A stretch of DNA of 64,000 nucleotides from Candidatus Thorarchaeota archaeon (lineage in GTDB: Archaea > Asgardarchaeota > Thorarchaeia > Thorarchaeales > Thorarchaeaceae). This document shows positions 18,981 through 44,269 of the stretch, in pieces. The DNA is taken from the NCBI GenBank assembly GCA_011364905.1, contig RDNZ01000007.1, forward strand, positions 32,742-96,741. Direction: 5' to 3'. The notes under the pieces are model-generated. The model was given only the letters and a program-made list of their open reading frames with translations. It searched no databases and was not told the origin of the DNA. The translations under genes and the position numbers were made by a program. Within the stretch, counting starts at the first letter, position 1; the number at the start of each line of letters is the position of its first letter.

Positions 18981-20264
18981 TCAAGAAACAATGATTGTAT
19001 CTGCCCTATCCGGGCCGATTGAAACCAGTTTCACCTGTGTGTTCGTTAATTTTTCAATAAACGCAAGGTATCTTTTCAGTTGGACCGGCAAATCGTGCAA
19101 CGACTCTAATTCTGATAGAGATAGGTCATCAAGTGTCCACCCTTCTAACTCTTCATAGATAGGAACTACGTTTGACAGAGTGGTAGCATCGGCAGGGAAA
19201 TTCGTGGTTTCTTCGCCGTCTACATCGTAGGCGACACAGACTTTCAAGGGATTGATTCCCGTCAGAGCATCAGCTTTTGTAACTGCCAGAAACTTGCCAC
19301 CATTGAGCCTGACCGCATACCGCAACGCAACAATATCCAACCACCCGCATCTTCGAGGCCGACCTGTTACTGTGCCATACTCTCTGCCTTTATCGCGAAT
19401 TCTTAGACCAACGCTTCCTTCAACCTCTGTTGGAAAAGGGCCGGTTCCGACTCTAGTCAGATACGCCTTGCAGATACCTAACACAGACTCGAGTTTCGAG
19501 AATGGAACTCCAGTTCCGATTGATGCAGCGGCAGAAATACAATTAGAACTTGTGACAAAAGGATAGGTCCCATGGTCAATATCAAGTAGAGTACCTTGAG
19601 CTCCTTCAAATAGGACACGTTTTCCTGCACTCATCTCCTTCTCCAAGAAGACGCCACTGTCTCCAACATAGGGCAAAAGGCTCTTGACAGCAGAGGTAAA
19701 AGACTCCAATGAAGGACCATTTTGTGTATCCACATCTGCATGATGAACTGCCTCAATAATAGACCTCGATGAAGCTTCAAGAGATGACCATTGATCACCT
19801 GAATGGTTTCTGAAATCGCAAAATCGAACACCGACACGAGACACCTTGTCAGAGTATGTAGGACCAATTCCTCTCCTCGTGGTACCGATCATCTTTCCTC
19901 CTTTAGATAACTCATTAAGGCCATCAATCTGAATGTGATACGGTGTGATGAGATGCGCTCGGTCACTGATTAGCAGGTTAACCTCGATTCCGGCCTTCCT
20001 CAAGGCGTTAATCTCATCTAAGAGAATGATGGGATCAACCACAACACCATTTCCAATCACTACACTTTTTTTGCGTATAGCGCCAGTGGGCATAATTCTA
20101 AACTTGTGTACCTTCTCGCCTATTTTCACAGTATGCCCTGCGTTACTGCCACCTTGAAATCTAACTACAATGTCAAAGTCCTCTGAAAGTACATCGACTA
20201 TCTTGCCTTTGCCTTCGTCGCCCCACTGCAGTCCGACGACGACCAAGCTTTGAGAGGAGTTCAT
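18981..20264 (-). CDS. purA: adenylosuccinate synthetase
   Basis: QWGDEGKGK, GGSNAGHT, FEGAQG, TGRPRRCGWLD. Confidence 0.97.
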   Translation of the reverse strand: MNSSQSLVVVGLQWGDEGKGKIVDVLSEDFDIVVRFQGGSNAGHTVKIGEKVHKFRIMPTGAIRKKSVVIGNGVVVDPIILLDEINALRKAGIEVNLLISDRAHLITPYHIQIDGLNELSKGGKMIGTTRRGIGPTYSDKVSRVGVRFCDFRNHSGDQWSSLEASSRSIIEAVHHADVDTQNGPSLESFTSAVKSLLPYVGDSGVFLEKEMSAGKRVLFEGAQGTLLDIDHGTYPFVTSSNCISAAASIGTGVPFSKLESVLGICKAYLTRVGTGPFPTEVEGSVGLRIRDKGREYGTVTGRPRRCGWLDIVALRYAVRLNGGKFLAVTKADALTGINPLKVCVAYDVDGEETTNFPADATTLSNVVPIYEELEGWTLDDLSLSELESLHDLPVQLKRYLAFIEKLTNTQVKLVSIGPDRADTIIVS

Positions 20265-32843: not shown

Positions 32844-34409
32844 CTAATCATCCAGATGGATACGCTCGGCAATCTCATCTGTCCCTCCAGACTCGATTTC
32901 ATCGAGGAGTTCTTCATCGATTAACTCAATTCCAGTGGTTTCGATTGTCTCGATTGGTTCTGGGGGAACAACAACATCACCGTTTGCCCAGGTTTCTCCT
33001 TCAATCTCTGGAGGTTCATGTCGAAAGCCCTGAACAATAAGGAGGACCCCAATCAGGGATGTGACACCGCAAGCTGCGAGAGTTAGTGGGAATCCGATGA
33101 TTGTGATTAGCCATCCAAATAGGGCAATCTGTGGAATTGCGAATATAGTGGCAATTGTGGGAAACAGAGAGTACATTGAGTTGCGAATCCTGTTTGGTAT
33201 GACATCAATCAAGACTCTCTGAGTCAGAACCTCTGCGAACCCTCCAAAGAAACTAGTTGATACAAAAGTTGTGAATATCAGCACTATTGGTAGAATGTTC
33301 TCCACAGGAAGACTCAGGAGTTGAATGTTGGTGAGAGGCCAGTACAGAATCAGTGTATCGGTACTGGTTGCAGCTGGTGGGAAGATAAGCATGATTGCAG
33401 CAAAGACCCAGAAGAAGATGAAACCGCATGTCTGCATTAAACGGAATCGTGGTATCCAGGTTTTTGGTTCGAATTTACGAGACCAGATACCTGATCGCTC
33501 CTGCGAAAAAATGCCAGGGATGAATAGCAGTGTTCTGAAACTCGCGACTCCTACATCTGTTATCAGATAGAGGTAATACATTGGAAATAGAATGAGATTA
33601 CCCCAGACCATTATACTACTTACAGCTATCATGCTGCCAATGCCAATGTAGCGGACAAAGGAATTCCTAAAGAGATAGCTTACACCACCCTTTAGTATTG
33701 AGAAGTACTCGCCCATGTCAGGACGCCCACCTTCCTGAGCTCTCTGTTCCTCGACCTCAGGGAAATCACGTACTAGTCTGAACGTAATCATGGCGAAGAA
33801 AAAGGCGAGAATACCTTGGAATTGGAAGACCCAGGCTCTTGAGAAGACAACTGCAAGAATGCTTCCAGGAATCAAAGCAGCTGTTGCCACGACCTGCATG
33901 ATCATACCCATTCGGCCCCAGAAGACACCGTACTGTTTCCGGTCTGTGTCTCCAGGCATAGCAACTCTGTAGTTGTTGTCAAACCATGCACCCCAGGCCC
34001 CACTGGACTGGGATTGAGCAAATCCCTGCAGTCCGTAGATTAGAACAAGGTAGAGGTACGGTGTATCAACGGTCACAAACGAGAGCAAGAGAAAAGCCAC
34101 ACCAAAGGAGAGGTTTGAGGAGGCTATAATGTATCGTTGACCAATCCAATCACCAATTGCGCCGGTTGGATAGTCGAGAGATATTTGCACAACCATCTCG
34201 ATAACCACCAGAGTTCCAACCAGTCCCATGCCCTGAAGATACATTCCAGGGCCACCGCCCAGTGCCTCAGCGACGAAGATCACATAGAATGTACTGCTCA
34301 AGACAAACGTGATGTTTGCTAGTGGTCCAAGTATGGCCATGATTTTTGCCAGTCGTAGAACTTTCTCAGTGGCATCTGGCAAGCCGAGGAAGGATTTCAT
34401 TCGACTCAT
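32844..34409 (-). CDS. MFS transporter
   Basis: DYPTGAIGDWIGQR (motif A), about 12 TM segments, acidic tail. Confidence 0.9.
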   Translation of the reverse strand: MSRMKSFLGLPDATEKVLRLAKIMAILGPLANITFVLSSTFYVIFVAEALGGGPGMYLQGMGLVGTLVVIEMVVQISLDYPTGAIGDWIGQRYIIASSNLSFGVAFLLLSFVTVDTPYLYLVLIYGLQGFAQSQSSGAWGAWFDNNYRVAMPGDTDRKQYGVFWGRMGMIMQVVATAALIPGSILAVVFSRAWVFQFQGILAFFFAMITFRLVRDFPEVEEQRAQEGGRPDMGEYFSILKGGVSYLFRNSFVRYIGIGSMIAVSSIMVWGNLILFPMYYLYLITDVGVASFRTLLFIPGIFSQERSGIWSRKFEPKTWIPRFRLMQTCGFIFFWVFAAIMLIFPPAATSTDTLILYWPLTNIQLLSLPVENILPIVLIFTTFVSTSFFGGFAEVLTQRVLIDVIPNRIRNSMYSLFPTIATIFAIPQIALFGWLITIIGFPLTLAACGVTSLIGVLLIVQGFRHEPPEIEGETWANGDVVVPPEPIETIETTGIELIDEELLDEIESGGTDEIAERIHLDD

Positions 34410-34442
34410 AAGTTTTCAACACTCGGTTTTTAGTTGCGATCT

Positions 34443-34514
34443 CTACAAGAAACTGAAGTGCCCTAGGCATGTAGTTATTGCCATCATGCTTTGGGGTTGA
34501 GATTCGTGTTTCAT
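34443..34514 (-). CDS. putative small ORF H (23 aa, MKHESQPQSMMAITTCLGHFSFL)
   Basis: Manually translated; AGGAAG upstream; ends 33 nt before the MFS start. Confidence 0.25.
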   Translation of the reverse strand: MKHESQPQSMMAITTCLGHFSFL

Positions 34515-34526
34515 GTTTTTCTGACT

Positions 34527-34606
34527 TCCTATAGTAGCAACGGTCCCCGGATCACACAAACGAGGACCGCTGCTGAATCTCCACATTGGGAGATTCGGAG
34601 ATAGGA
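34527..34606 (-). ncRNA. structured RNA element (three-way junction) upstream of the MFS gene
   Basis: 14-bp stem AGCAGCGGUCCUCG/CGGGGACCGUUGCU with two G-U pairs that form only on the minus strand; 8-bp GAAUCUCC/GGAGAUUC; closing UCCUAU/AUAGGA. Confidence 0.5.
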
Positions 34607-34785
34607 GATTTGTCCGATTCGACTCTGATGTGAAATTGCATTGCTCTAGTCGGCTATACTTAGACCAGTATTACACAATGCTCCAAATGACTGGACACAA
34701 ATCGTCTTGTCACCTTTGGTCAAGCAGGGCTTGTCCATTGACAGGATTCTCGGTAGTGTCATCGTCATCATCACGCTTTTTTTTC

Positions 34786-34944
34786 TTAACCCCACATGTT
34801 AAATAGTTTGTGGGCCACACCATTATTATTAAATGGTTTGATTATAAGCATTATTCTCGAAGCATTATTTTGTACTCCGCACTTAAATCCATCATTTTGT
34901 TGGTTTTTGGGACCAAAATTATAATGGTTGCACAGGGAGGCCAT
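34786..34944 (-). CDS. putative small ORF E (52 aa, MASLCNHYNFGPKNQQNDGFKCGVQNNASRIMLIIKPFNNNGVAHKLFNMWG)
   Basis: ATG 7 nt after AGGAGGT, which overlaps the stop of sORF D. Confidence 0.45.
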   Translation of the reverse strand: MASLCNHYNFGPKNQQNDGFKCGVQNNASRIMLIIKPFNNNGVAHKLFNMWG

Positions 34945-34949
34945 TGATT

Positions 34950-35018
34950 CTACCTCCTAAAGTACATGTCAGCGATAGCACGCGTCGATACAGTCTGCGA
35001 TCTGCTCTTTTTGGTCAA
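34950..35018 (-). CDS. putative small ORF D (22 aa, MTKKSRSQTVSTRAIADMYFRR)
   Basis: TTG 7 nt after AGGAGGT, which overlaps the stop of sORF C; ends AGG AGG TAG. Confidence 0.45.
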   Translation of the reverse strand: MTKKSRSQTVSTRAIADMYFRR

Positions 35019-35023
35019 GCTTG

Positions 35024-35119
35024 TTACCTCCTATAGACATGGGCATGAATAATGGCACTTGTCTGAATGACTGCTTTCCTATCCAACGCAATTGGACAGT
35101 TGCTATTCGTTAGCGCCAT
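35024..35119 (-). CDS. putative small ORF C (31 aa, MALTNSNCPIALDRKAVIQTSAIIHAHVYRR)
   Basis: Start context 21/23 identical to sORF A; ends AGG AGG TAA. Confidence 0.5.
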   Translation of the reverse strand: MALTNSNCPIALDRKAVIQTSAIIHAHVYRR

Positions 35120-35135
35120 GACATTTCACAACTCT

Positions 35136-35264
35136 CTATAGGTTGGTCACAGGATATGCTGTTTCTGAGACTAACTGACCAGTTCTGTGACCACACTGTG
35201 GCCAGAACTCAGCCACACTAGGATCTGCAGAGATCCAGCATATTGTCCGTTCAGGATTCACCAA
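35136..35264 (-). CDS. putative small ORF B (42 aa, MVNPERTICWISADPSVAEFWPQCGHRTGQLVSETAYPVTNL)
   Basis: TTG 5 nt after AAGGTGA, which contains the stop of sORF A. Confidence 0.4.
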   Translation of the reverse strand: MVNPERTICWISADPSVAEFWPQCGHRTGQLVSETAYPVTNL

Positions 35265-35269
35265 ATCGT

Positions 35270-35374
35270 TCACCTTGTAACGGTCAGGTAAGCATAAGTT
35301 ACAGCAAAGGTCGAGACCTTTGCCTTATCGTTCTTGAGCACAGATGTTGTTCGTGAGTTAGTTGTTAGAGCCAT
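35270..35374 (-). CDS. putative small ORF A (34 aa, MALTTNSRTTSVLKNDKAKVSTFAVTYAYLTVTR)
   Basis: First ORF behind the TATATATA box; GTGAAATatcATG context. Confidence 0.5.
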   Translation of the reverse strand: MALTTNSRTTSVLKNDKAKVSTFAVTYAYLTVTR

Positions 35375-35406
35375 GATATTTCACAAGAATTAGTACTCAG
35401 ATTTAG

Positions 35407-35414
35407 TATATATA
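35407..35414 (-). promoter_or_regulatory. putative TATA box for the sORF array/MFS transcript
   Basis: TATATATA 32 nt upstream of the sORF A ATG. Confidence 0.55.
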
Positions 35415-35444
35415 GCGAAGCCACTTCTGAGGGTCACCAGAGGG

Positions 35445-35461
35445 AGTCACAATATGTGACT
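35445..35461. promoter_or_regulatory. palindromic putative operator between divergent units
   Basis: AGTCAC-aatat-GTGACT. Confidence 0.35.
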
Positions 35462-35539
35462 ACTGTATACCACATAGACAAGCATATCAGGGTCCACAGG
35501 TGGCTCAAAATTGTATTAAGTCGAAAAACGTGAAGAACA

Positions 35540-36166
35540 ATGGCTCCTGATGACCAGACTCAACAATTAATCGACTATTTTTCAAATATGGCGCTACAGG
35601 AATTAACGAATCAGTTCGAAGACCGTGGTTCAGCGATGCACAAGCTCTTCGTGCGGCAATTCAAGATTCACTACAACAACTATGAGCAGATGATGCCAAA
35701 TCCGCTCGCAAAGAGACATGGAATCAACTCATTATTCGTGATGGCAATGGACGATGTGATGTGCGAGGTCAGAGCATCATTCTCAGAACTCAAAGACATT
35801 GTGGTTTCAATATACCGTGCAATGCTTCAAGATTACTTCAAGAGAGAAGTTGAGAAACTTGAGGCTTCCAGCGATCCATGGCACGCCTTTGTTGAGTGGA
35901 CTCGTCAAGGGAATGAAACCAACAACAACAATGAATACTTCCAAGTCAAAGAGGTTGAAACACAAGAGGGGTGCTTTGGATTCGATATTCAGAGATGTCT
36001 CTATTTTGAAATCCTCAGAGAAGCTGGAAAACCAGAGCTAGGGCCAATACTTTGCAAATATGATAGTCTCCTAGCTGAAGCCGTACAGAATTGGATCGGA
36101 TTTACAAGACACGAAACAATAGCGCGTGGAGATAAGTGTTGCACATTCAGATACTGCAAAAAATAG
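35540..36166 (+). CDS. L-2-amino-thiazoline-4-carboxylic acid hydrolase family (ATC_hydrolase-like) protein
   Basis: FDIQRCLY, ELGPILCKYD, TIARGDKCCTFRY. Confidence 0.8.
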   Translation: MAPDDQTQQLIDYFSNMALQELTNQFEDRGSAMHKLFVRQFKIHYNNYEQMMPNPLAKRHGINSLFVMAMDDVMCEVRASFSELKDIVVSIYRAMLQDYFKREVEKLEASSDPWHAFVEWTRQGNETNNNNEYFQVKEVETQEGCFGFDIQRCLYFEILREAGKPELGPILCKYDSLLAEAVQNWIGFTRHETIARGDKCCTFRYCKK

Positions 36167-37241: not shown

Positions 37242-38093
37242 GTGTGTGACTTGATTTACAAGGAAACTAAATACATTGGCTATGATGGAACAAGGATGTT
37301 CATGGCGCTTTGGCGCCCGGATGACGATAAACCGAAAGCTCTCATCCTTGCCCTTCATGGACTGGGAGGTCATGGGGGAGATATGAGAAACATTGGCGAA
37401 TTTCTCGCAGAACGTGGACTCGCAGTGTTTGCCCCAGACCTGAGGGGCTTCGGGCACTATTCTGGAACAAAGGGACATGTTATGAACTTTGACGAGTATA
37501 TCGAAGACATCGAGAACCTAGTAATGCAGGTGAAGGACACTTATCTGAATAAAATAACGTACATCTTTGGAGCTTCTCTTGGAGGGTTGAATGCTATTCG
37601 GTATGTAGTAAAGTATCCTAGAACAGTCGACGGTCTGTTACTTGAGTGTCCAGCAGTGAGTCAAAAACTGAGCATTGGTGCTGGAAAGCAGTTTGTCGGA
37701 AAAATCCTCTCCGCTCTCAATGTTAAGAGATACGTGGTGACTGGAGTAGAGTATGAAAAAGCATCCAGAAATCCTGACAATGTAAAGAGACTTCAAACTG
37801 ATCCACTAAGAGTGAATATGGTCACACCGCGTTTTGGTATCGAGGCATTGCGAGCGACGAAAGATGCATTTCTCTCTGCAAAAGATATCGTCCTGCCAGT
37901 TCTGCTTCAACAAGCTGGAGATGATAACCTGGTTGTTCCTGAAAAAAGCAAGGAATTCTTTGAGAACCTTAGCTCAGCTGACAAGACCTGGTATCTTTAC
38001 GATGGCCTCTATCATCAGCTCCACGAAGAACCTGAGAAAGACAAAGTGCTTGGAGACCTCTATAACTGGCTTGATAAGCGCCTTCCAGCTTAG
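37242..38093 (+). CDS. alpha/beta hydrolase (lysophospholipase/monoacylglycerol lipase family)
   Basis: HGLGGH, DLRGFG, GASLGG nucleophile, catalytic D and H (YHQLHEE). Confidence 0.9.
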   Translation: MCDLIYKETKYIGYDGTRMFMALWRPDDDKPKALILALHGLGGHGGDMRNIGEFLAERGLAVFAPDLRGFGHYSGTKGHVMNFDEYIEDIENLVMQVKDTYLNKITYIFGASLGGLNAIRYVVKYPRTVDGLLLECPAVSQKLSIGAGKQFVGKILSALNVKRYVVTGVEYEKASRNPDNVKRLQTDPLRVNMVTPRFGIEALRATKDAFLSAKDIVLPVLLQQAGDDNLVVPEKSKEFFENLSSADKTWYLYDGLYHQLHEEPEKDKVLGDLYNWLDKRLPA

Positions 38094-40906
38094 TCTGTTT
38101 TGGACTTTCGGAAATATCCAAAGATTAGGTGCGGAGGAACCAGTAGCGCAGGCATACAGCTAAGAATGACAATAAACCAGTCTTCCGGATTGAGTGGAAC
38201 CGTTTGAAAAAGAACTGCTACTGGCGGGAAGTATATCGTCACCAGCGTCAGAACTAGGGATAGAATAACTGCAGCCGCTAGAACCTTTGACTTTCTCACA
38301 TCAGTCCTCCATACCGGATGATATTCATTCCTACAATTCCACACGAATAGGAGTTCAAAACACACTACACTCGCAAAGACAGCAGTTCGCCCGTGAGTAC
38401 GGACGTATGCCCAGGAGAGACCAGTTATTGGTGAAACGTCAGTGTTCCAAAGGACATCTGGACCTGTAATTCCGGGAATCCATCCCCCATATGCCCAAAG
38501 AGACCAAAACCACATTATGAGTGATGCCAAGAATGCCGCTGCACCTGCGATAAGGATGAAAGATATCATTCCACGGTCCATCATCTTGGCGCCTGGTTTT
38601 CTGGGTGGTCTATCCATCACGCCAGACTCCGGAGGATCAACACCAAGGGCCAATGCAGGAAAACCGTCAGTTGCTAGGTTGAGCCAGAGTATCTGAATTG
38701 CTGTAATGGGTGGAGGTAATCCCAACATGACGACTGTGAATATCAAAAAGACCTCGTCAAAGTTTGCAGCTAGCAAGAACCGCACGAACTTTCTTATGTT
38801 TGAATATATCTCACGACCCTTTTCCACTGCAGACACGATTGTGGCAAAGTTGTCATCGGTCAAGATGACATCTGAGGTCTCCTTTGTAACATCCGCTCCA
38901 CGAATACCCATGGAAACGCCAACATCTGCAGTCTTGATTGCAGGGGCATCATTGACACCATCCCCGGTCATTGCGACAACTTGCCCACTTGATCTCAGAA
39001 AACTCACGATCTGCAGCTTGTGTTCTGGGGCCACTCTTGCAAACACATTACAACGATTCACTGCATCCTGAAACGCCTCTTGAGTCATTTCATCAAGTTC
39101 GGCTCCAGTTATTACTTCTCCATCATTGTCAATTAGTCCAACATCTCTAGCAATCGCGCGGGCTGTTAGATGATGGTCGCCAGTTATCATTATTGGGCGA
39201 ATCCCGGCCATTTTGCAAATTTGCATCGCGTTTCGCACCTCACTGCGAGGCGGATCAATCATGCCAATGAGACCCACAAAGATGAGATTACGCTCAACCT
39301 GCTCAGGCTCCCAACCCGGAATTTCGTGCTCCAAGGGGCGATAAGCAAAGGCTAAGACTCTCAACGCATTCTCTGCGAATCCAGCGTTGATTTGGATTAT
39401 GTTCTCCTTCTCGTTCTGCGTCAATTCTCGAATTTCATTATTCTCATAGATATGAGTACAAAGAGGAAGTAGTATCTCAGGGGCCCCCTTTGCATTCGCA
39501 ACGAGTCTTCCATTCTTGTCCCGAACGATCGACGTCATGCGCTTTCTTGCGGAATCGAATGAGATCTCAGTGACTTCGGTGTTTCGTGACATTGTGTCAT
39601 CATAGGAGAGACCTGCTTTTTCAGCAAGAACAAGGATGGCACCTTCGGTTGGGTCTCCAACAACACTCCAATCATCCTTTCCAGTTGGATTGGTTTGCAG
39701 GATTGAGTTACTACAGAGTTGCCCTATCTCAAGCAGCTTCAAGACATGAGGATCGTCTCTCACACTATAGTCCTCGCTTGCTCGTCTGAATTCGCCTCTC
39801 CGATTATATCCTACTCCACTTACAGAAATGGTCATGCCGTTCACAAACAAAGTTGTCGCAGTCATTTCGTTCTTTGTGATGGTTCCAGTCTTATCAGAAC
39901 AGATGATTGTTGTTGATCCTAGGGTTTCAACGGAGGGAAGTCTTCGAACTATGGCATTTCTAGCCACCATTCTTTGAACACCTATGGCAAGTGTGATTGT
40001 CACTACTGCAGGCAGTCCCTCAGGGATTGCAGACACCGCTAAGGCAATTGAGGCTAGCAATGCATCCATAATGGTTGCAGTGGAGTGCTCAAAAACCTCC
40101 GCTCCAAAGACGATAATACAGAGAGCGATAATCAAAAGCCCTAATTTCTTGCCAAGATCATCAAGGTCGACTTGGAGAGGAGTCATGCTCTGCTCGCTCT
40201 CCTGAACAAGTTCAGCTATTTTCCCGAACTGAGTTTTCATTCCTGTCGCAGTCACGAGGGCTTGACCTTTTCCAGCTGTTATGGTAGTTCCTTGGAATAC
40301 CATATTCTTCATGTCTCCAACAACAGCCTTGCGGAGATAGATAGGATCCAGCATCTTTCGAACCGCTACAGATTCTCCAGTAAGGGGAGCCTCATCAGCT
40401 GACAAACCCACAGCATAAGAAACCCGACCATCAGCAGGTATTAGGTCGCCGGCTTCGAATCCAATAAGGTCGCCGGGTACAATTTTTTTGGATTCAAGTT
40501 CAGTCCAAAGGCCATCTCGCATAACCCGTGCTTTTGGTGCCGCCATCTCTTTCAGAGCTTCTAACGCCTTCTCAGACTTGTATTCTTGCGCGAATCCGAA
40601 TATCGCGTTGAAAATCACAATTGCGGAAATCACAATTGCGTCAATAATTCCACCTTCGTGATTAGTCTCAGATGAAAGCATTGTAGTAAGTACTGAGATT
40701 ACTATTGCAATGAGAAGGATAATTACCATGGGATCCATGAACTGTCGGAGAAACATCTTGATTGGATTAATACCACCAGTTTCAACCAGTTCATTGGGCC
40801 CATATTCCACAAGTCGCTTCTCTGCTTCTGTGGTTGAGAGGCCCTCTTGTGACGATTCAAGATGTTCTATCACGTAGTCAAGATCGTTGCTATACCACTC
40901 AGTCAT
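38090..40906 (-). CDS. P-type ATPase, type II (Ca2+-like cation transporter)
   Basis: TGES, PEGL, DKTGT, KGAPE, GDGVNDAP, LWLNLATD. Confidence 0.95.
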   Translation of the reverse strand: MTEWYSNDLDYVIEHLESSQEGLSTTEAEKRLVEYGPNELVETGGINPIKMFLRQFMDPMVIILLIAIVISVLTTMLSSETNHEGGIIDAIVISAIVIFNAIFGFAQEYKSEKALEALKEMAAPKARVMRDGLWTELESKKIVPGDLIGFEAGDLIPADGRVSYAVGLSADEAPLTGESVAVRKMLDPIYLRKAVVGDMKNMVFQGTTITAGKGQALVTATGMKTQFGKIAELVQESEQSMTPLQVDLDDLGKKLGLLIIALCIIVFGAEVFEHSTATIMDALLASIALAVSAIPEGLPAVVTITLAIGVQRMVARNAIVRRLPSVETLGSTTIICSDKTGTITKNEMTATTLFVNGMTISVSGVGYNRRGEFRRASEDYSVRDDPHVLKLLEIGQLCSNSILQTNPTGKDDWSVVGDPTEGAILVLAEKAGLSYDDTMSRNTEVTEISFDSARKRMTSIVRDKNGRLVANAKGAPEILLPLCTHIYENNEIRELTQNEKENIIQINAGFAENALRVLAFAYRPLEHEIPGWEPEQVERNLIFVGLIGMIDPPRSEVRNAMQICKMAGIRPIMITGDHHLTARAIARDVGLIDNDGEVITGAELDEMTQEAFQDAVNRCNVFARVAPEHKLQIVSFLRSSGQVVAMTGDGVNDAPAIKTADVGVSMGIRGADVTKETSDVILTDDNFATIVSAVEKGREIYSNIRKFVRFLLAANFDEVFLIFTVVMLGLPPPITAIQILWLNLATDGFPALALGVDPPESGVMDRPPRKPGAKMMDRGMISFILIAGAAAFLASLIMWFWSLWAYGGWIPGITGPDVLWNTDVSPITGLSWAYVRTHGRTAVFASVVCFELLFVWNCRNEYHPVWRTDVRKSKVLAAAVILSLVLTLVTIYFPPVAVLFQTVPLNPEDWFIVILSCMPALLVPPHLIFGYFRKSKTD

Positions 40907-42892: not shown

Positions 42893-44269
42893 ATGATAGA
42901 GGCTGATGTGCAAGTTGAGAGCCCTGTAGACAAAAGGCTACCAGCGCGTGCATATATTGTCGGAGCATTAACCCAGTTTGGAGTAGGCTTGTATGCTCCC
43001 TTTATCCAAGCATATTTAATCGACATGCAGGTGGCCCTCAGAGGCGTTCAGAACTTCGCTGAACAAGGAGCATTTCGAAGCGTAGGTAACTTCGCACCAA
43101 CAGTTCTTCAACCAGTATGGGGAGCAACCTCCGATAAGGTGAGAAAGACCAAGGCATTTGTTGCATTCGGTACATTGACAGGTCTTCTTGTTGTCTATAT
43201 GTTCCTCTGGGCTGCAACACCAATTGATTTGATTGTCCTCTATGCGGTCCAATCAATCCTATTCAGCATTCAAATCCCAACCTGGTTATCATTAATAGGG
43301 GGGTTAATGGATGAGAAAAACAGGGGAATTGAGCTTGGTAAGCTAGGGCTTGCTACTAATGTGGCATCTTTATCTGCCACAATGATGTCAGGTTTCATTG
43401 CTGTATTGCCAGCGGTTGTACCGTTGCTCAGAACCCTCTTTGGCCCACTGTTATTCCCAATTCAATTAGGTACTCAGGCTTTTAGAGTTGCATACTATGG
43501 ACCGTTCTTCTTTACAGCCGTGGTGGGAATAATCTCGTCTCTTCTTTCACTAACAATTAAGGAATACACTAAGCAGCGTGATGGACCAACAAGATTCCCA
43601 CCAATTCATCGGTTGATATCGCAACCAGGTGATTTCCGCAGATTCTGTTTTGTGGCTGTGTTCTTCTCATTTGCAATGTCCATGGCATGGCCATATTTCA
43701 TAGTAGTCCAAAAAACTTGGTTGAACAACTCCAACCTTGAGATTGCTATTGCGTCAGCGCTCATGACCCTAGCTACCATAATATTCACCATTCCATTCGG
43801 AAAACTAAGTGACAGGGTAGGAAGAAAGCCGCTGATAATCCTAGGAAGAGGACTATTATGCCTAGTCCCAATAATGTACGCATTTGCTCAAAATGTGTAC
43901 TATGTTTATGCAGCCAACATACTAGCAGGTTTTTGCGTAGCTTCAAGCTTTAATGCCATCACTGCATATATCTACGATATTGCTCCAGAAGCGGAACGAG
44001 GATCTCACCTTGCTGTGTTTAACACGTTCACGGGATTAGTATACTTGATTGGGTCTTTGATTGCAGGATTCGTCGGACAAGCCATTTTTGAAGCATTTGG
44101 AAGCGCTTATTTCTCGGTCTTCATTATGCTGGTCTTGAGTGGGGTTCTTCGATTCTTTGCATCATTCTTTTACCTGCTCATCCGAGAGCCAAGAGAATAT
44201 AGCTCAACCATCTGGCTGGAACTCAGAGCTCGCTTTCCCGGCAGACGTCACGATGCGGATATCGCCTAG
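42893..44269 (+). CDS. MFS transporter
   Basis: GKLSDRVGRK motif A; about 12 TM segments. Confidence 0.9.
   Translation: MIEADVQVESPVDKRLPARAYIVGALTQFGVGLYAPFIQAYLIDMQVALRGVQNFAEQGAFRSVGNFAPTVLQPVWGATSDKVRKTKAFVAFGTLTGLLVVYMFLWAATPIDLIVLYAVQSILFSIQIPTWLSLIGGLMDEKNRGIELGKLGLATNVASLSATMMSGFIAVLPAVVPLLRTLFGPLLFPIQLGTQAFRVAYYGPFFFTAVVGIISSLLSLTIKEYTKQRDGPTRFPPIHRLISQPGDFRRFCFVAVFFSFAMSMAWPYFIVVQKTWLNNSNLEIAIASALMTLATIIFTIPFGKLSDRVGRKPLIILGRGLLCLVPIMYAFAQNVYYVYAANILAGFCVASSFNAITAYIYDIAPEAERGSHLAVFNTFTGLVYLIGSLIAGFVGQAIFEAFGSAYFSVFIMLVLSGVLRFFASFFYLLIREPREYSSTIWLELRARFPGRRHDADIA

What the first reader, a model, noticed from the sequence alone, without database searches (positions are those of the whole stretch)
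34410..35414. Head-to-tail array of translationally coupled micro-ORFs feeding into an MFS transporter
Seen: this gap has no ORF of 60 aa or more on the minus strand, yet behind a TATATATA box (35407-14) it is tiled by short ORFs: A 35374-35270 (34 aa), B 35264-35136 (42 aa), C 35119-35024 (31 aa), D 35018-34950 (22 aa), E 34944-34786 (52 aa), then F 34771-34646 (41 aa) or 34823-34710 (37 aa, MVWPTNYLTCGVKKKKRDDDDDTTENPVNGQALLDQR), G 34641-34552 (29 aa) and H 34514-34443 (23 aa), then the MFS start at 34409. A ends AGG-TGA, C ends AGG-AGG-TAA and D ends AGG-AGG-TAG, so each stop sits inside a Shine-Dalgarno motif with the next start 5 nt after the stop. A and C both begin MALT(T)NS; C and D end YRR and YFRR. 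Established: SD motifs overlapping stop codons are typical of translational coupling. Inference: either a polycistronic micropeptide operon whose products are exported or sensed by the MFS (peptide signals, toxins or precursor peptides), or a multi-uORF ribosome relay controlling MFS expression. I know no described Asgard system like this. F-H are weaker than A-E.
Basis: partly seen in the sequence, partly recalled or inferred. Interest (0 to 1): 0.88.

Follow-up and report, generated by a model that had tools for sequence, protein, structure and literature searches.

The report
Chained micro-gene leader before archaeal pump
The "empty" 1.1-kb gap in front of a membrane transporter gene of a Thorarchaeota (Asgard) archaeon holds a conserved chain of tiny translated genes; three belong to an undescribed, multi-copy micro-protein family, and what the peptides do is still unknown.

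Summary
All ORFs lie where stated. Stops set inside Shine-Dalgarno (SD) motifs occur 3 times, against 0.09 in shuffles (0 of 1000 reach 3).

Fourteen same-genus genomes keep this leader in front of the same MFS gene. A, C, D and F (34771-34646) are under protein-level selection. B and E are kept open, with conserved starts, but their peptide sequence is not selected. They look like translated bridges. The alternative F (34823-34710) and G are not conserved. H is a version of a 35-codon final upstream ORF (uORF) that is broken in this genome. Two RNA hairpins (34596-34537) show compensatory changes.

A, C and D belong to a Thorarchaeota-only family of 22-38-residue basic peptides. The family sits behind one near-invariant promoter and operator, with four copies in this genome. 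About half of the classifiable copies across Thorarchaeota precede one of two MFS families.

This scan has already found the same family on other genomes. I found no published description.

Best reading: an operator-controlled, polycistronic, fully translated leader whose ribosome chain co-expresses micro-proteins with the pump and may gate it. The single transcript and the function are inferred, not shown.

The parts
35432..35462 (-). Operator: an inverted repeat of the half-site TGTGAC (35461-35445) plus a third half-site, GGTGACC (35438-35432), upstream of the TATA box.
   Evidence: Near-invariant in the 14 orthologues, in the 4 copies in this genome and across Thorarchaeota loci. The left arm varies C/A without compensation, so it is read as a DNA site, not an RNA helix.
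35407..35414 (-). TATA box of promoter P1.
   Evidence: Invariant in all copies. It lies 22 nt upstream of the conserved GTGAAA leader, which predicts a transcript start near 35384 (inference from archaeal TATA-to-start spacing).
35375..35386 (-). Short conserved 5' leader (TTGTGAAATATC) with a GTGA SD-like core, immediately before ORF A.
   Evidence: A pattern built on it hits 108 stretches in 185,579 species genomes. Of the 80 records listed, all but about 5 are Thorarchaeota/Promethearchaeota or unnamed archaeal MAGs.
35270..35374 (-). ORF A, 34 aa. It is the first-position member of the micro-protein family.
   Evidence: Start and stop are kept in 14 of 14 species. Codon-position entropy is 0.59/0.50/0.90. 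The synonymous share of differing codons is 0.34 in frame against 0.17 and 0.07 off frame. Across 46 copies the position entropy sums are 23.0/18.2/34.9.
35136..35264 (-). ORF B, 42 aa (TTG start; alternative GTG at 35273). A bridging ORF that is kept open but not selected as a peptide.
   Evidence: It is exactly 129 nt in 14 of 14 species, with a start in 12 of 14 and a stop in 13 of 14. It is open in 14 of 14 species in frame against 0-1 of 14 off frame, even in its variable 5' half. The synonymous share is 0.19 against 0.10 and 0.21, so no frame is preferred. The same conserved 3' bases are read in a different frame in paralogous loci.
35144..35204 (-). B element: three direct GGTCA(C/G)-type repeats about 11 nt apart (35204-35197, 35194-35186, 35182-35175), a TATA-like GCATATC (35159-35153) and a TGTGACCA half-site (35151-35144). 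Candidate internal promoter P2 with operator.
   Evidence: Almost invariant, with entropy 0.17-0.31. The predicted stem never varies, so it gives no RNA evidence. GCATATC sits 23 nt before the second GTGAAA, as TATATATA sits 22 nt before the first. The same arrangement occurs 53 times in the held loci (which counts a few stretches held under two locus ids) and also upstream of the MFS-A leader in another genus.
35120..35131 (-). Second copy of the TTGTGAAA-type leader and ribosome-binding site, before ORF C.
   Evidence: Direct repeat D1, 86% identical to 35359-35386. Conserved in the orthologues.
35024..35119 (-). ORF C, 31 aa. A micro-protein family member whose stop lies inside AGGAGGTAA.
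   Evidence: ATG start and stop are kept in 14 of 14 species. All 13 indel events keep the frame. Entropy is 0.62/0.59/1.02 and the synonymous share is 0.35 against 0.10 and 0.11. Alignment A5.
34950..35018 (-). ORF D, 22 aa. A micro-protein family member of the second-position type, whose stop lies inside AGGAGGTAG.
   Evidence: The start is TTG in 9 species and ATG in 4, in the same column. The stop is kept in 13 of 14 (one species has a deletion). Entropy is 0.50/0.54/1.19 and the synonymous share is 0.35 against 0.04 and 0.09. Alignment A6.
34786..34944 (-). ORF E, 52 aa. A second bridging ORF over an AT-rich, nucleotide-conserved stretch that has T-runs and a TATA-like TTATA(T/A). Possibly a terminator or promoter zone.
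   Evidence: The start follows D's SD 5 nt later in 12 of 13 species. The frame is open for 49-90 codons (49-57 in 10) in 11 of 13 species, against 0 of 13 off frame. There is no codon periodicity (0.72/0.69/0.66), there are 18 frame-breaking indel events, and the synonymous share is 0.10 against 0.16 and 0.13. Consensus folding is weak at -4.7 kcal/mol.
34646..34771 (-). ORF F, 41 aa (in frame with a GTG at 34774). A conserved Cys-containing small protein unrelated to A, C and D.
   Evidence: Present in 10 of 14 species and cleanly deleted in 4. Entropy is 0.66/0.55/1.02, the synonymous share is 0.33 against 0.12 and 0.09, and the peptide is conserved in 9 of 10.
34710..34823 (-). Alternative F (37 aa, poly-K/D). 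Rejected.
   Evidence: The stop is not conserved, there are 26 frame-breaking indel events and there is no periodicity.
34552..34641 (-). ORF G, 29 aa. Not a conserved frame; it overlies the RNA hairpins.
   Evidence: Entropy is flat (0.35/0.37/0.35) and there are 33 frame-breaking events. In some orthologues another frame runs from here to just before the MFS start.
34575..34596 (-). RNA hairpin 1 (8 bp).
   Evidence: Four pairs are fully compensated in 2 related species. The hairpin is cleanly absent in 3 species.
34537..34573 (-). RNA hairpin 2 (13 bp, GC-rich, with an invariant 11-nt loop).
   Evidence: Compensatory changes occur at 3 pairs (both sides changed), and several further pairs change on one side with pairing kept. 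The G-U pairs form only in minus-strand RNA.
34443..34514 (-). ORF H, 23 aa. A truncated version of the final uORF H'.
   Evidence: Ten orthologues keep a 105-nt ORF ending 6-12 nt before the MFS start. This genome has deletions of 8 nt and 1 nt that break it, 33 nt short of the MFS start. Codon periodicity of H' is weak (0.58/0.67/0.70), so coding is inconclusive.
32844..34409 (-). MFS transporter (here called MFS-A), 521 aa.
   Evidence: Matches Pfam MFS_1 at E = 3.7e-16 and no NCBIfam model. The orthologue lies downstream of the leader in 14 of 14 genomes.

Best explanation
The gap is a conserved, multi-part, translated leader-operon in front of an MFS transporter of a Thorarchaeota archaeon.

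A near-invariant promoter (TGTGAC-type operator, TATA box, 10-12-nt leader) starts a string of short ORFs. Ribosomes are handed from one ORF to the next because each stop lies inside the SD of the next start, 5 nt away.

Three ORFs (A, C, D) make members of a lineage-specific family of 22-38-residue basic peptides with a conserved C-terminal motif (S/T-T-x-A-I/L/V-x3-Y-x2-R-R). A fourth ORF (F) makes an unrelated small Cys-containing peptide. Two ORFs (B, E) are bridges: selection keeps them open and startable, but not their sequence. This is what is expected if ribosome traffic matters there rather than the product.

The leader ends with two RNA hairpins and a final uORF next to the transporter start. 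That uORF is broken in this genome.

Proposed working (inferred): one operator-controlled transcript carries the micro-protein genes and the pump. The ribosome chain keeps this long leader translated. It thereby sets how much transcription and translation reaches the pump, and the micro-proteins are made in step with it. Their own target is unknown.

Shown: the anatomy, the selection patterns, the RNA covariation, the multi-copy family and its association with MFS genes. Inferred: a single transcript, reinitiation, and any gating of the pump.
For: - ORFs and junctions are present and exceed chance.
- The leader is about 70-75% identical over about 1 kb in same-genus genomes, and it lies upstream of the same MFS in 14 of 14 loci.
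- Protein-level selection on A, C, D and F: synonymous share 0.33-0.35 in frame against 0.04-0.17 off frame, frame-keeping indels, conserved starts and stops.
- B and E are open in 14 of 14 and 11 of 13 species against 0-1 off frame, with conserved starts but no synonymous bias.
- SD initiation is used in this genome.
- The family has four copies in this genome behind the same promoter.
- It was found in all 24 same-genus genomes searched and in none of 16 genomes of other genera (only chance-level matches, E of 0.08 or more). The pattern scan hits almost only Thorarchaeota. The profile finds only 35 cluster representatives among 1.84 billion proteins, nearly all 32-46 aa.
- Of 68 classifiable cassettes, 36 to 39 precede MFS-A or a DHA3-type MFS-B. 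In most MFS-B loci the second family ORF's stop lies only a few nt (about 4-6) before the pump start.
- The B-type promoter/operator element precedes the MFS-A leader in another genus too. The homologous regulated promoter of this pump therefore lies upstream of C and D, which puts C-D-E-F inside the pump's leader.
- The hairpins covary on the minus strand only.
- Termination-reinitiation coupling at very short distances has been demonstrated in archaea (PMC6728339, PMC10666635).
Against:
- The B-to-C gap is 16 nt, and the H-to-MFS gap is 33 nt in this genome. These distances nearly abolished reinitiation in Haloferax and E. coli (PMC10666635).
- Only 4 of 14 species have an unbroken ORF path to the MFS start.
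- The F region is deleted in 4 species, and hairpin 1 plus H' in 3. The distal relay is therefore dispensable.
- The E region carries T-runs and a TATA-like box, and the B element looks like a promoter. The locus could therefore be two or three separate transcription units.
- Stand-alone cassettes, and cassettes before unrelated genes, show that the peptides do not need this pump.
Confidence: 0.45

Rival explanations
1. Neighbours only. The gap holds two or three independent units: P1 drives A; the B-element promoter P2 drives C and D with a terminator in E; a third promoter in E drives F, the hairpins, H' and the MFS. These units share a regulator but are not mechanically coupled. The peptides act in trans as small basic proteins of a stress or efflux regulon.
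For: - The B element has a TATA-like box at the same spacing to GTGAAA as P1, with a half-site between them.
- E is non-coding by selection tests, AT-rich, and has conserved T-runs and a TTATA(T/A) box.
- Stand-alone three-ORF cassettes exist in this genome.
- D ends 540 nt from the pump start.
- The distal parts vary between species.
Against: - B and E are kept open, with starts placed 5 nt after SD-bearing stops, in nearly all species. This is hard to explain if they are untranslated promoter or terminator DNA.
- There is no TGTGAC operator near the putative third promoter, whereas in another genus the operator element directly heads the pump leader.
Confidence: 0.3
2. Cis-only nascent-peptide sensors. 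A, C and D are ribosome-arrest or attenuator peptides. Their conserved C-terminal residues act inside the exit tunnel, stalling at the stop and so masking or exposing the next start in response to a metabolite or translation stress. In this way they tune the pump.
For: - All family members are 22-38 aa, short enough to lie within the exit tunnel.
- The strongest protein-level constraint is in the last 13 or so residues, next to the stop.
- The stop and the next start lie within one ribosome footprint.
- Downstream genes are efflux pumps, a GNAT and a YbaK-type deacylase. Leader peptides control such resistance or translation-quality genes in bacteria (own knowledge).
Against: - Cassettes occur with no coupled downstream gene.
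- The N-terminus and middle of ORF A are also conserved.
- Three sensors in series, 540 nt from the target, is unlike known arrest systems.
- No arrest peptide is known in archaea (own knowledge), and nothing here tests stalling.
Confidence: 0.15
3. Exported peptides. The micro-ORFs are unmodified or modified secreted peptides (bacteriocin-like or signalling), and the MFS is their exporter or immunity pump.
For: - Tandem paralogous cationic peptide genes lie next to efflux-type MFS genes.
- The architecture resembles multi-peptide leaderless bacteriocin operons (own knowledge).
Against: - No maturase, peptidase or ABC exporter lies within about 7 kb.
- The peptides are polar and basic rather than membrane-active, and are predicted to be a single helix at modest confidence.
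- The cassettes also precede cytosolic enzymes or nothing.
- The family is highly conserved across species, unlike fast-evolving bacteriocins.
Confidence: 0.07
4. No genes: chance ORFs in a conserved non-coding RNA or regulatory DNA.
For: - Rfam has no match.
- Parts of the gap (B 3' half, E, hairpins) are conserved at the nucleotide level.
Against: - A, C, D and F show third-position variation, frame-keeping indels, stop-to-stop substitutions and frame-specific openness.
- The junctions are far above shuffle expectation.
Confidence: 0.02

Closest known systems
Thorarchaeota micro-protein cassettes noted earlier in this scan on other genomes (e1-5662947, e1-4731605, e1-5554941, e1-5526804, e1-5583489, e1-4839788, e1-5554814) and on three other contigs of this genome (e1-5792715, e1-5792982, e1-5792633)
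   Same: The promoter/operator is the same, the first ORF has the same N-terminus, the C-terminal motif is the same, the SD-over-stop chaining is the same, and the cassettes recur before MFS pumps.
   Different: This locus is the most elaborate form seen here. A lone first ORF is followed by a bridge ORF over a second promoter-like element, two more family ORFs, a second bridge, an unrelated small ORF, covarying RNA hairpins and a final uORF. The last family ORF and the pump are 540 nt apart instead of 4-6 nt.
Leader-peptide or uORF control of bacterial efflux and resistance genes (tetA(L) reinitiation, cmlA/fexA, mef(E)/mel attenuation; own knowledge)
   Same: Short ORFs lie in the 5' leader of an MFS efflux gene. 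The paralogous MFS-B is of the DHA3/Mef type. Stop and start lie close enough for coupling.
   Different: This is an archaeon. There are several paralogous ORFs in series and one promoter shared by many loci. The ORFs also occur without a downstream gene. No inducer or stalling has been shown.
Termination-reinitiation translational coupling in archaea and bacteria (PMC6728339, PMC10666635)
   Same: Stop and next start are separated by -4 to +5 nt, with an SD in the 3' end of the upstream ORF (A-B, C-D, D-E, F-G).
   Different: The described pairs mostly encode subunits of complexes and are full-length genes. Here there are 5-7 micro-ORFs in a row, two of them without a selected product. Two junctions (16 and 33 nt) exceed the distance at which coupling was seen.
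Termination-stalling arrest peptides SpeFL (34 aa) and TnaC (24 aa) of E. coli (own knowledge)
   Same: Similar size, conserved C-terminal residues ending in Arg directly before the stop, and a position upstream of a regulated gene.
   Different: No sequence relationship, no evidence of stalling or of a ligand, multi-copy and tandem, archaeal ribosome.
Multi-peptide leaderless bacteriocin operons such as aureocin A70 (own knowledge)
   Same: Tandem paralogous cationic peptide genes of about 30 aa without leader sequences, next to a transporter.
   Different: The peptides here are polar. The neighbour is an MFS rather than an ABC exporter, there are no immunity or accessory genes, and conservation is strong across a whole class.
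Translation-dependent protection from factor-dependent transcription termination (bacterial Rho polarity; archaeal FttA/aCPSF1: PMC11616081, PMC7515710)
   Same: A long leader kept covered by ribosomes would escape premature termination. This would explain why B and E are kept open without peptide selection.
   Different: This is purely an inference here. No termination data exist for this organism.

Membership tests
Thorarchaeota micro-protein cassette family (undescribed; defined within this scan) | Conserved promoter: TGTGAC inverted repeat plus third half-site, TATATATA, and a GTGAAA leader directly before the first ORF | tested here: met
   35462-35375 aligns nearly base for base with the three other copies in this genome and with copies in 24 of 24 same-genus genomes.
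Thorarchaeota micro-protein cassette family (undescribed; defined within this scan) | First ORF of 32-38 aa with the conserved N-terminus and the S/T-T-x-A...A-Y...R C-terminus | tested here: met
   ORF A aligns with 46 and then 56 family members. M1, A2 and L3 are invariant, and N6, A24 and A28 are at least 90% conserved.
Thorarchaeota micro-protein cassette family (undescribed; defined within this scan) | Further ORFs with the same C-terminal motif, whose stop lies inside the SD of the next start | tested here: met
   C and D carry the motif and end in AGGAGGTAA and AGGAGGTAG. Both are conserved in 13-14 of 14 orthologues.
Thorarchaeota micro-protein cassette family (undescribed; defined within this scan) | Purifying selection at the protein level | tested here: met
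   The synonymous share is 0.34-0.35 in frame against 0.04-0.17 off frame for A, C and D.
uORF / leader-peptide control of a downstream gene | The uORFs lie on the same transcript as the regulated gene | not testable with these tools
Only positional arguments are available.
uORF / leader-peptide control of a downstream gene | The last uORF ends at or within a few nt of the main gene's ribosome-binding site | tested here: not met
   In this genome H stops 33 nt before the MFS start and D stops 540 nt before it. The feature is met in 4 of 14 orthologues as an unbroken chain, and in 10 for H' alone (6-12 nt). It is also met for the family ORFs before MFS-B in paralogous loci.
uORF / leader-peptide control of a downstream gene | Translation of the uORF changes expression of the main gene | not testable with these tools
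   Needs reporter or ribosome-profiling experiments.
Ribosome arrest peptides (TnaC / SpeFL type) | Conserved residues in the last 10-15 positions before the stall site, and a peptide short enough to sit in the exit tunnel | tested here: met
   The C-terminal 13 residues are the most constrained at protein level. All members are 22-38 aa.
Ribosome arrest peptides (TnaC / SpeFL type) | Demonstrated ligand- or stress-dependent stalling | not testable with these tools
   No experimental system. No homology to any known arrest peptide or PDB chain: the best PDB hit has E = 0.34 and is judged spurious.
RiPP or bacteriocin gene clusters | A maturase, leader peptidase, immunity gene or dedicated ABC exporter next to the precursor genes | tested here: not met
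   The neighbours within about 7 kb are Topo VI-B, an F420 ligase, a zinc-ribbon protein, the MFS, an ATC-hydrolase-like protein, a 3-hydroxyacyl-CoA dehydrogenase, an alpha/beta hydrolase, a P-type ATPase and an M24 peptidase.
Known protein or RNA families (Pfam, NCBIfam, Rfam) | A significant model match | tested here: not met
   No Pfam hit for A-F and no NCBIfam hit for A, C, D and F. No Rfam hit in 33900-36000 at E up to 1.

The most novel reading that the evidence does not exclude
An archaeal, fully translated leader that works as a ribosome relay. Family peptides act as nascent-chain sensors, and sequence-free bridge ORFs keep ribosomes behind the RNA polymerase. Translation status then decides, through reinitiation and protection from factor-dependent termination, whether a shared efflux or translation-stress regulon (two MFS pumps, a GNAT, a YbaK-type deacylase) is expressed. 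This would be the first leader-peptide or attenuation-type control described in Asgard archaea.
Probability: 0.2. Interest if true: 0.85.

Novelty: new variant of a known kind. Interest (0 to 1): 0.6.

Why it matters
Small ORFs are missed by gene callers. Here at least four real micro-genes, and a whole regulon-like family with about 10 family ORFs in this 81%-complete genome, sit in annotated "gaps".

The locus offers a clean natural contrast between ORFs selected for their product (A, C, D, F) and ORFs selected only for being translated (B, E). This is direct comparative evidence that ribosome traffic itself is under selection in an archaeal leader.

If the relay gates the pump, it would extend leader-peptide and uORF control, so far a bacterial and eukaryotic theme, to the archaeal lineage closest to eukaryotes. 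It would also provide a defined promoter/operator, a peptide motif and an RNA element to test. If the peptides act in trans, they form a new, lineage-wide small-protein family tied to efflux.

Tried and rejected
- Rfam scan of 33900-36000 on both strands at E up to 1: nothing.
- tRNA scan of the whole window: none.
It was replaced by a profile search of 1.84 billion representatives. The two long hits are trimeric-autotransporter-like repeat proteins. They match a short S-T-E-A-I-T-G stretch only, and I judged them spurious.
- PDB profile search: one hit at E = 0.34 (ribosomal protein S14), judged to be chance.
- AlphaFold2 of ORF A with 56 relatives: a single helix with mean pLDDT 75. This is uninformative about function.
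- Complex prediction for C with D: no verdict (score 0.03, mark 0.32; D is shorter than the calibration range). It counts neither for nor against binding.
- RNA-structure reading of the B element: the predicted 8-bp stem never varies, so there is no covariation evidence.
- RNA-structure reading of E: weak fold.
- Alternative F (34823-34710) and G as genes: rejected on frame-breaking indels and flat codon entropy.
- Search of this genome for further copies of the operator before genes without micro-ORFs: only the four cassette copies were found.
Full report
**Setting.**
The window is contig C78 of an 81%-complete, 3.08-Mb genome. Relatives carrying the same sequences are Candidatus Thorarchaeota / Promethearchaeota MAGs. 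The finding covers the 1.13-kb gap between an MFS transporter gene (32844-34409, minus; Pfam MFS_1) and a divergent ATC-hydrolase-like gene (35540-36166, plus). Within about 7 kb there are no peptide-maturation or ABC-export genes.

**Observation.**
The three SD-over-stop junctions (A-B, C-D, D-E) have the stated sequence and exact 5-nt spacers.
- In 1000 dinucleotide shuffles such junctions average 0.09, and none reaches 3. The exact motif AGGAGGTAR never occurs twice.
- Tiling alone is only mildly unusual (37 of 1000). With gaps up to 20 nt, the chain A-B-C-D-E-F-G covers 85% of the leader, and 5 of 300 shuffles reach as far.
- The organism has a canonical anti-SD, and SD motifs are enriched before long ORFs (25% against 6%).

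**Conservation.**
The whole gap is 69-75% identical over about 1 kb in a dozen same-genus genomes. Its first 175-340 nt recur three more times in this genome (contigs C17, C53, C11) and three to five times in each of 24 same-genus genomes. I fetched 14 orthologous loci. In all of them the cassette lies 760-980 nt upstream of the orthologous MFS, and I aligned them.

**Which ORFs are genes.**
I used three measures on the 14-species alignment: codon-position entropy, frame-keeping versus frame-breaking indels, and the share of synonymous changes among differing codons in each of the three frames.

| ORF | Synonymous share, in frame | Off frame | Other evidence |
|---|---|---|---|
| A | 0.34 | 0.17, 0.07 | starts and stops conserved; indels almost all in threes |
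| C | 0.35 | 0.10, 0.11 | starts and stops conserved; indels in threes |
| D | 0.35 | 0.04, 0.09 | start alternates TTG/ATG in one column |
| F (34771-34646) | 0.33 | 0.12, 0.09 | present in 10 species, cleanly deleted in 4 |
| B | 0.19 | 0.10, 0.21 | no frame preference |
| E | 0.10 | 0.16, 0.13 | no frame preference |

- Across 46 paralogous and orthologous copies of ORF A, third positions carry nearly twice the entropy of second positions. Invariant T and A codons in the C-terminal motif vary only at position 3.
- B is exactly 129 nt in 14 of 14 species. It has a start in 12 and a stop in 13. It is stop-free in 14 of 14 in frame against 0-1 of 14 in the other frames, even in its variable 5' half.
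- E starts 5 nt after D's stop in 12 of 13 species and is open for at least 49 codons in 11 of 13, against 0 of 13 off frame.
- In paralogous loci the conserved 3' bases of B are read in a different frame.
- I therefore read B and E as translated bridges: their openness and start position are selected, their product is not.
- The alternative F (34823-34710) and G fail every test.
- H is the remnant of a 105-nt final uORF (H') that ends 6-12 nt before the MFS start in ten orthologues. In this genome deletions of 8 nt and 1 nt truncate it. H' itself shows little codon periodicity, so its coding status is open. A differently sequenced but similarly placed uORF overlaps the MFS start (ATGA) in another genus.

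**Non-coding elements.**
1. *Promoter P1.* An inverted TGTGAC repeat plus a third half-site (35462-35432), TATATATA (35414-35407), and 22 nt later the conserved GTGAAA leader. The left arm of the repeat varies without compensation, which argues for a DNA operator rather than RNA.
2. *The B element (35204-35144).*
   - It has three direct GGTCA(C/G) repeats about 11 nt apart. These are followed by a TATA-like GCATATC and a TGTGACCA half-site, and 23 nt after GCATATC comes a second GTGAAA leader before C.
   - It is nearly invariant, and its predicted stem never varies.
   - The same arrangement occurs 53 times in the held loci. In another genus it sits directly before the last uORF of the MFS-A leader.
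   - It is thus probably an internal operator or promoter (P2), even though it lies inside the bridge ORF B.
3. *The E region.* It is AT-rich and conserved at nucleotide level, with T-runs and a TTATA(T/A) box. Consensus folding is weak.
4. *Two hairpins (34596-34575 and 34573-34537).* They show compensatory changes at seven pairs, and their G-U pairs exist only in minus-strand RNA. This partly confirms the separate first-reader note e1-5793094: RNAalifold did not return its closing helix.

**The family.**
- A, C and D are paralogues of 22-38-residue, basic peptides with a shared C-terminal motif.
- Pfam, NCBIfam and the PDB give nothing.
- A 56-member profile finds only 35 cluster representatives among 1.84 billion proteins. 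Nearly all are 32-46 aa, and the two long hits are spurious repeat proteins.
- A 19-nt pattern over the leader and start hits 108 stretches among 185,579 species genomes. Of the 80 records listed, all but about 5 are Thorarchaeota/Promethearchaeota or unnamed archaeal MAGs.
- I could classify the first long downstream ORF for 68 of 84 further cassettes: 19 are a DHA3/Mef/EntS-like MFS (MFS-B), 17 to 20 are MFS-A, 6 are a GNAT and 2 a YbaK-like deacylase. The rest are diverse.
- Before MFS-B the arrangement is usually first ORF, second ORF, pump, with junctions of only a few nt.
- In this genome, C53 and C11 carry self-contained three-ORF cassettes, and C17 carries a cassette chained to MFS-B.

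**Interpretation.**
A-B-C-D-E is a conserved chain of startable, open frames with stops inside SD motifs. Two links in it have no selected product, which is best explained by selection on translation itself.

Whether the chain reaches the pump is uncertain.
- The B-to-C gap (16 nt), and in this genome the H-to-MFS gap (33 nt), exceed the distance at which termination-reinitiation was seen experimentally (PMC10666635).
- Only 4 of 14 species have an unbroken path.
- Distal modules are lost in some species.
- On the other side, the only operator-bearing promoters lie upstream of A and of C. The homologous element directly heads the MFS-A leader in another genus. This places C-D-E-F within the pump's regulated leader.

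I therefore favour one operator-controlled polycistronic, translated leader-operon (0.45) over adjacent independent units (0.30). A plausible but untested benefit of continuous translation is protection of a long leader from factor-dependent termination (FttA/aCPSF1: PMC11616081, PMC7515710).

The peptides themselves are probably products in their own right, because cassettes also stand alone. A purely cis, arrest-type role (0.15) and an export role (0.07) remain possible.

**Relation to earlier notes.**
This scan has already found and followed up the same family on several other Thorarchaeota genomes, and it noted the three other copies in this genome. My independent tests agree with those notes on reality, lineage restriction, the shared promoter and the link to MFS genes. 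New here are four points: the bridge-ORF pattern, the internal promoter-like B element inside a translated frame, the extra conserved ORF F, and covariation support for the hairpins. I also found that H is broken in this genome. Full-text searches found no paper describing this system.

Noticed in passing
window 34443-34514 (compare L062:2452-2591): Relative to ten orthologues, this genome carries an 8-nt and a 1-nt deletion inside the final uORF before the MFS. They truncate it and move its stop from 6-12 nt to 33 nt before the MFS start. This could be a real lineage change or a MAG assembly error.
   Followed up: partly
P0015 (public 103-aa gene call); compare window 35540-36166: One public protein fuses the first 68 or so residues of an ATC-hydrolase-like protein, the divergent neighbour here, directly to a family first-ORF peptide at a shared F-V-M-A junction. 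This suggests a rearrangement or assembly chimera at that locus in another genome.
   Followed up: no
orthologous loci L064, L065, L056, L058 versus window 34649-34786; L059, L060, L026 versus window 34450-34600: Clean module-sized deletions. Four species lack the whole F region, and three lack hairpin 1 and the H' uORF. The leader thus evolves by gain and loss of discrete blocks.
   Followed up: partly
G000:C11 about 19150-19270, and L110 and L023 downstream of their cassettes: Translations containing W-C-R-G-W-D-S-N-P-R-T-P-type strings indicate a tRNA gene on the opposite strand, apparently interrupted (intron-like insert in the T-arm region), just downstream of some cassettes.
   Followed up: no
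G000:C17:30411-31751 (L002): The paralogous pump MFS-B matches TIGR00900 (DHA3 H+ antiporter, E = 2.7e-64, below the curated cut-off) and more weakly EntS, Mef(A) and Tap models. It is therefore an efflux-type MFS directly chained to two family ORFs.
   Followed up: partly
window 42893-44269 (+) and 38090-40906 (-): A second, unrelated MFS gene (MFS_1, MFS_1_like) and a P-type cation ATPase lie within 10 kb. Neither is preceded by a cassette.
   Followed up: no
P0002, P0031: Trimeric-autotransporter-like giant repeat proteins score against the peptide profile through a short S-T-E-A-I-T-G-x-Q-L stretch. That stretch begins a helix in those proteins. This is a weak hint that the family motif is an N-capped helix start, not homology.
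   Followed up: no
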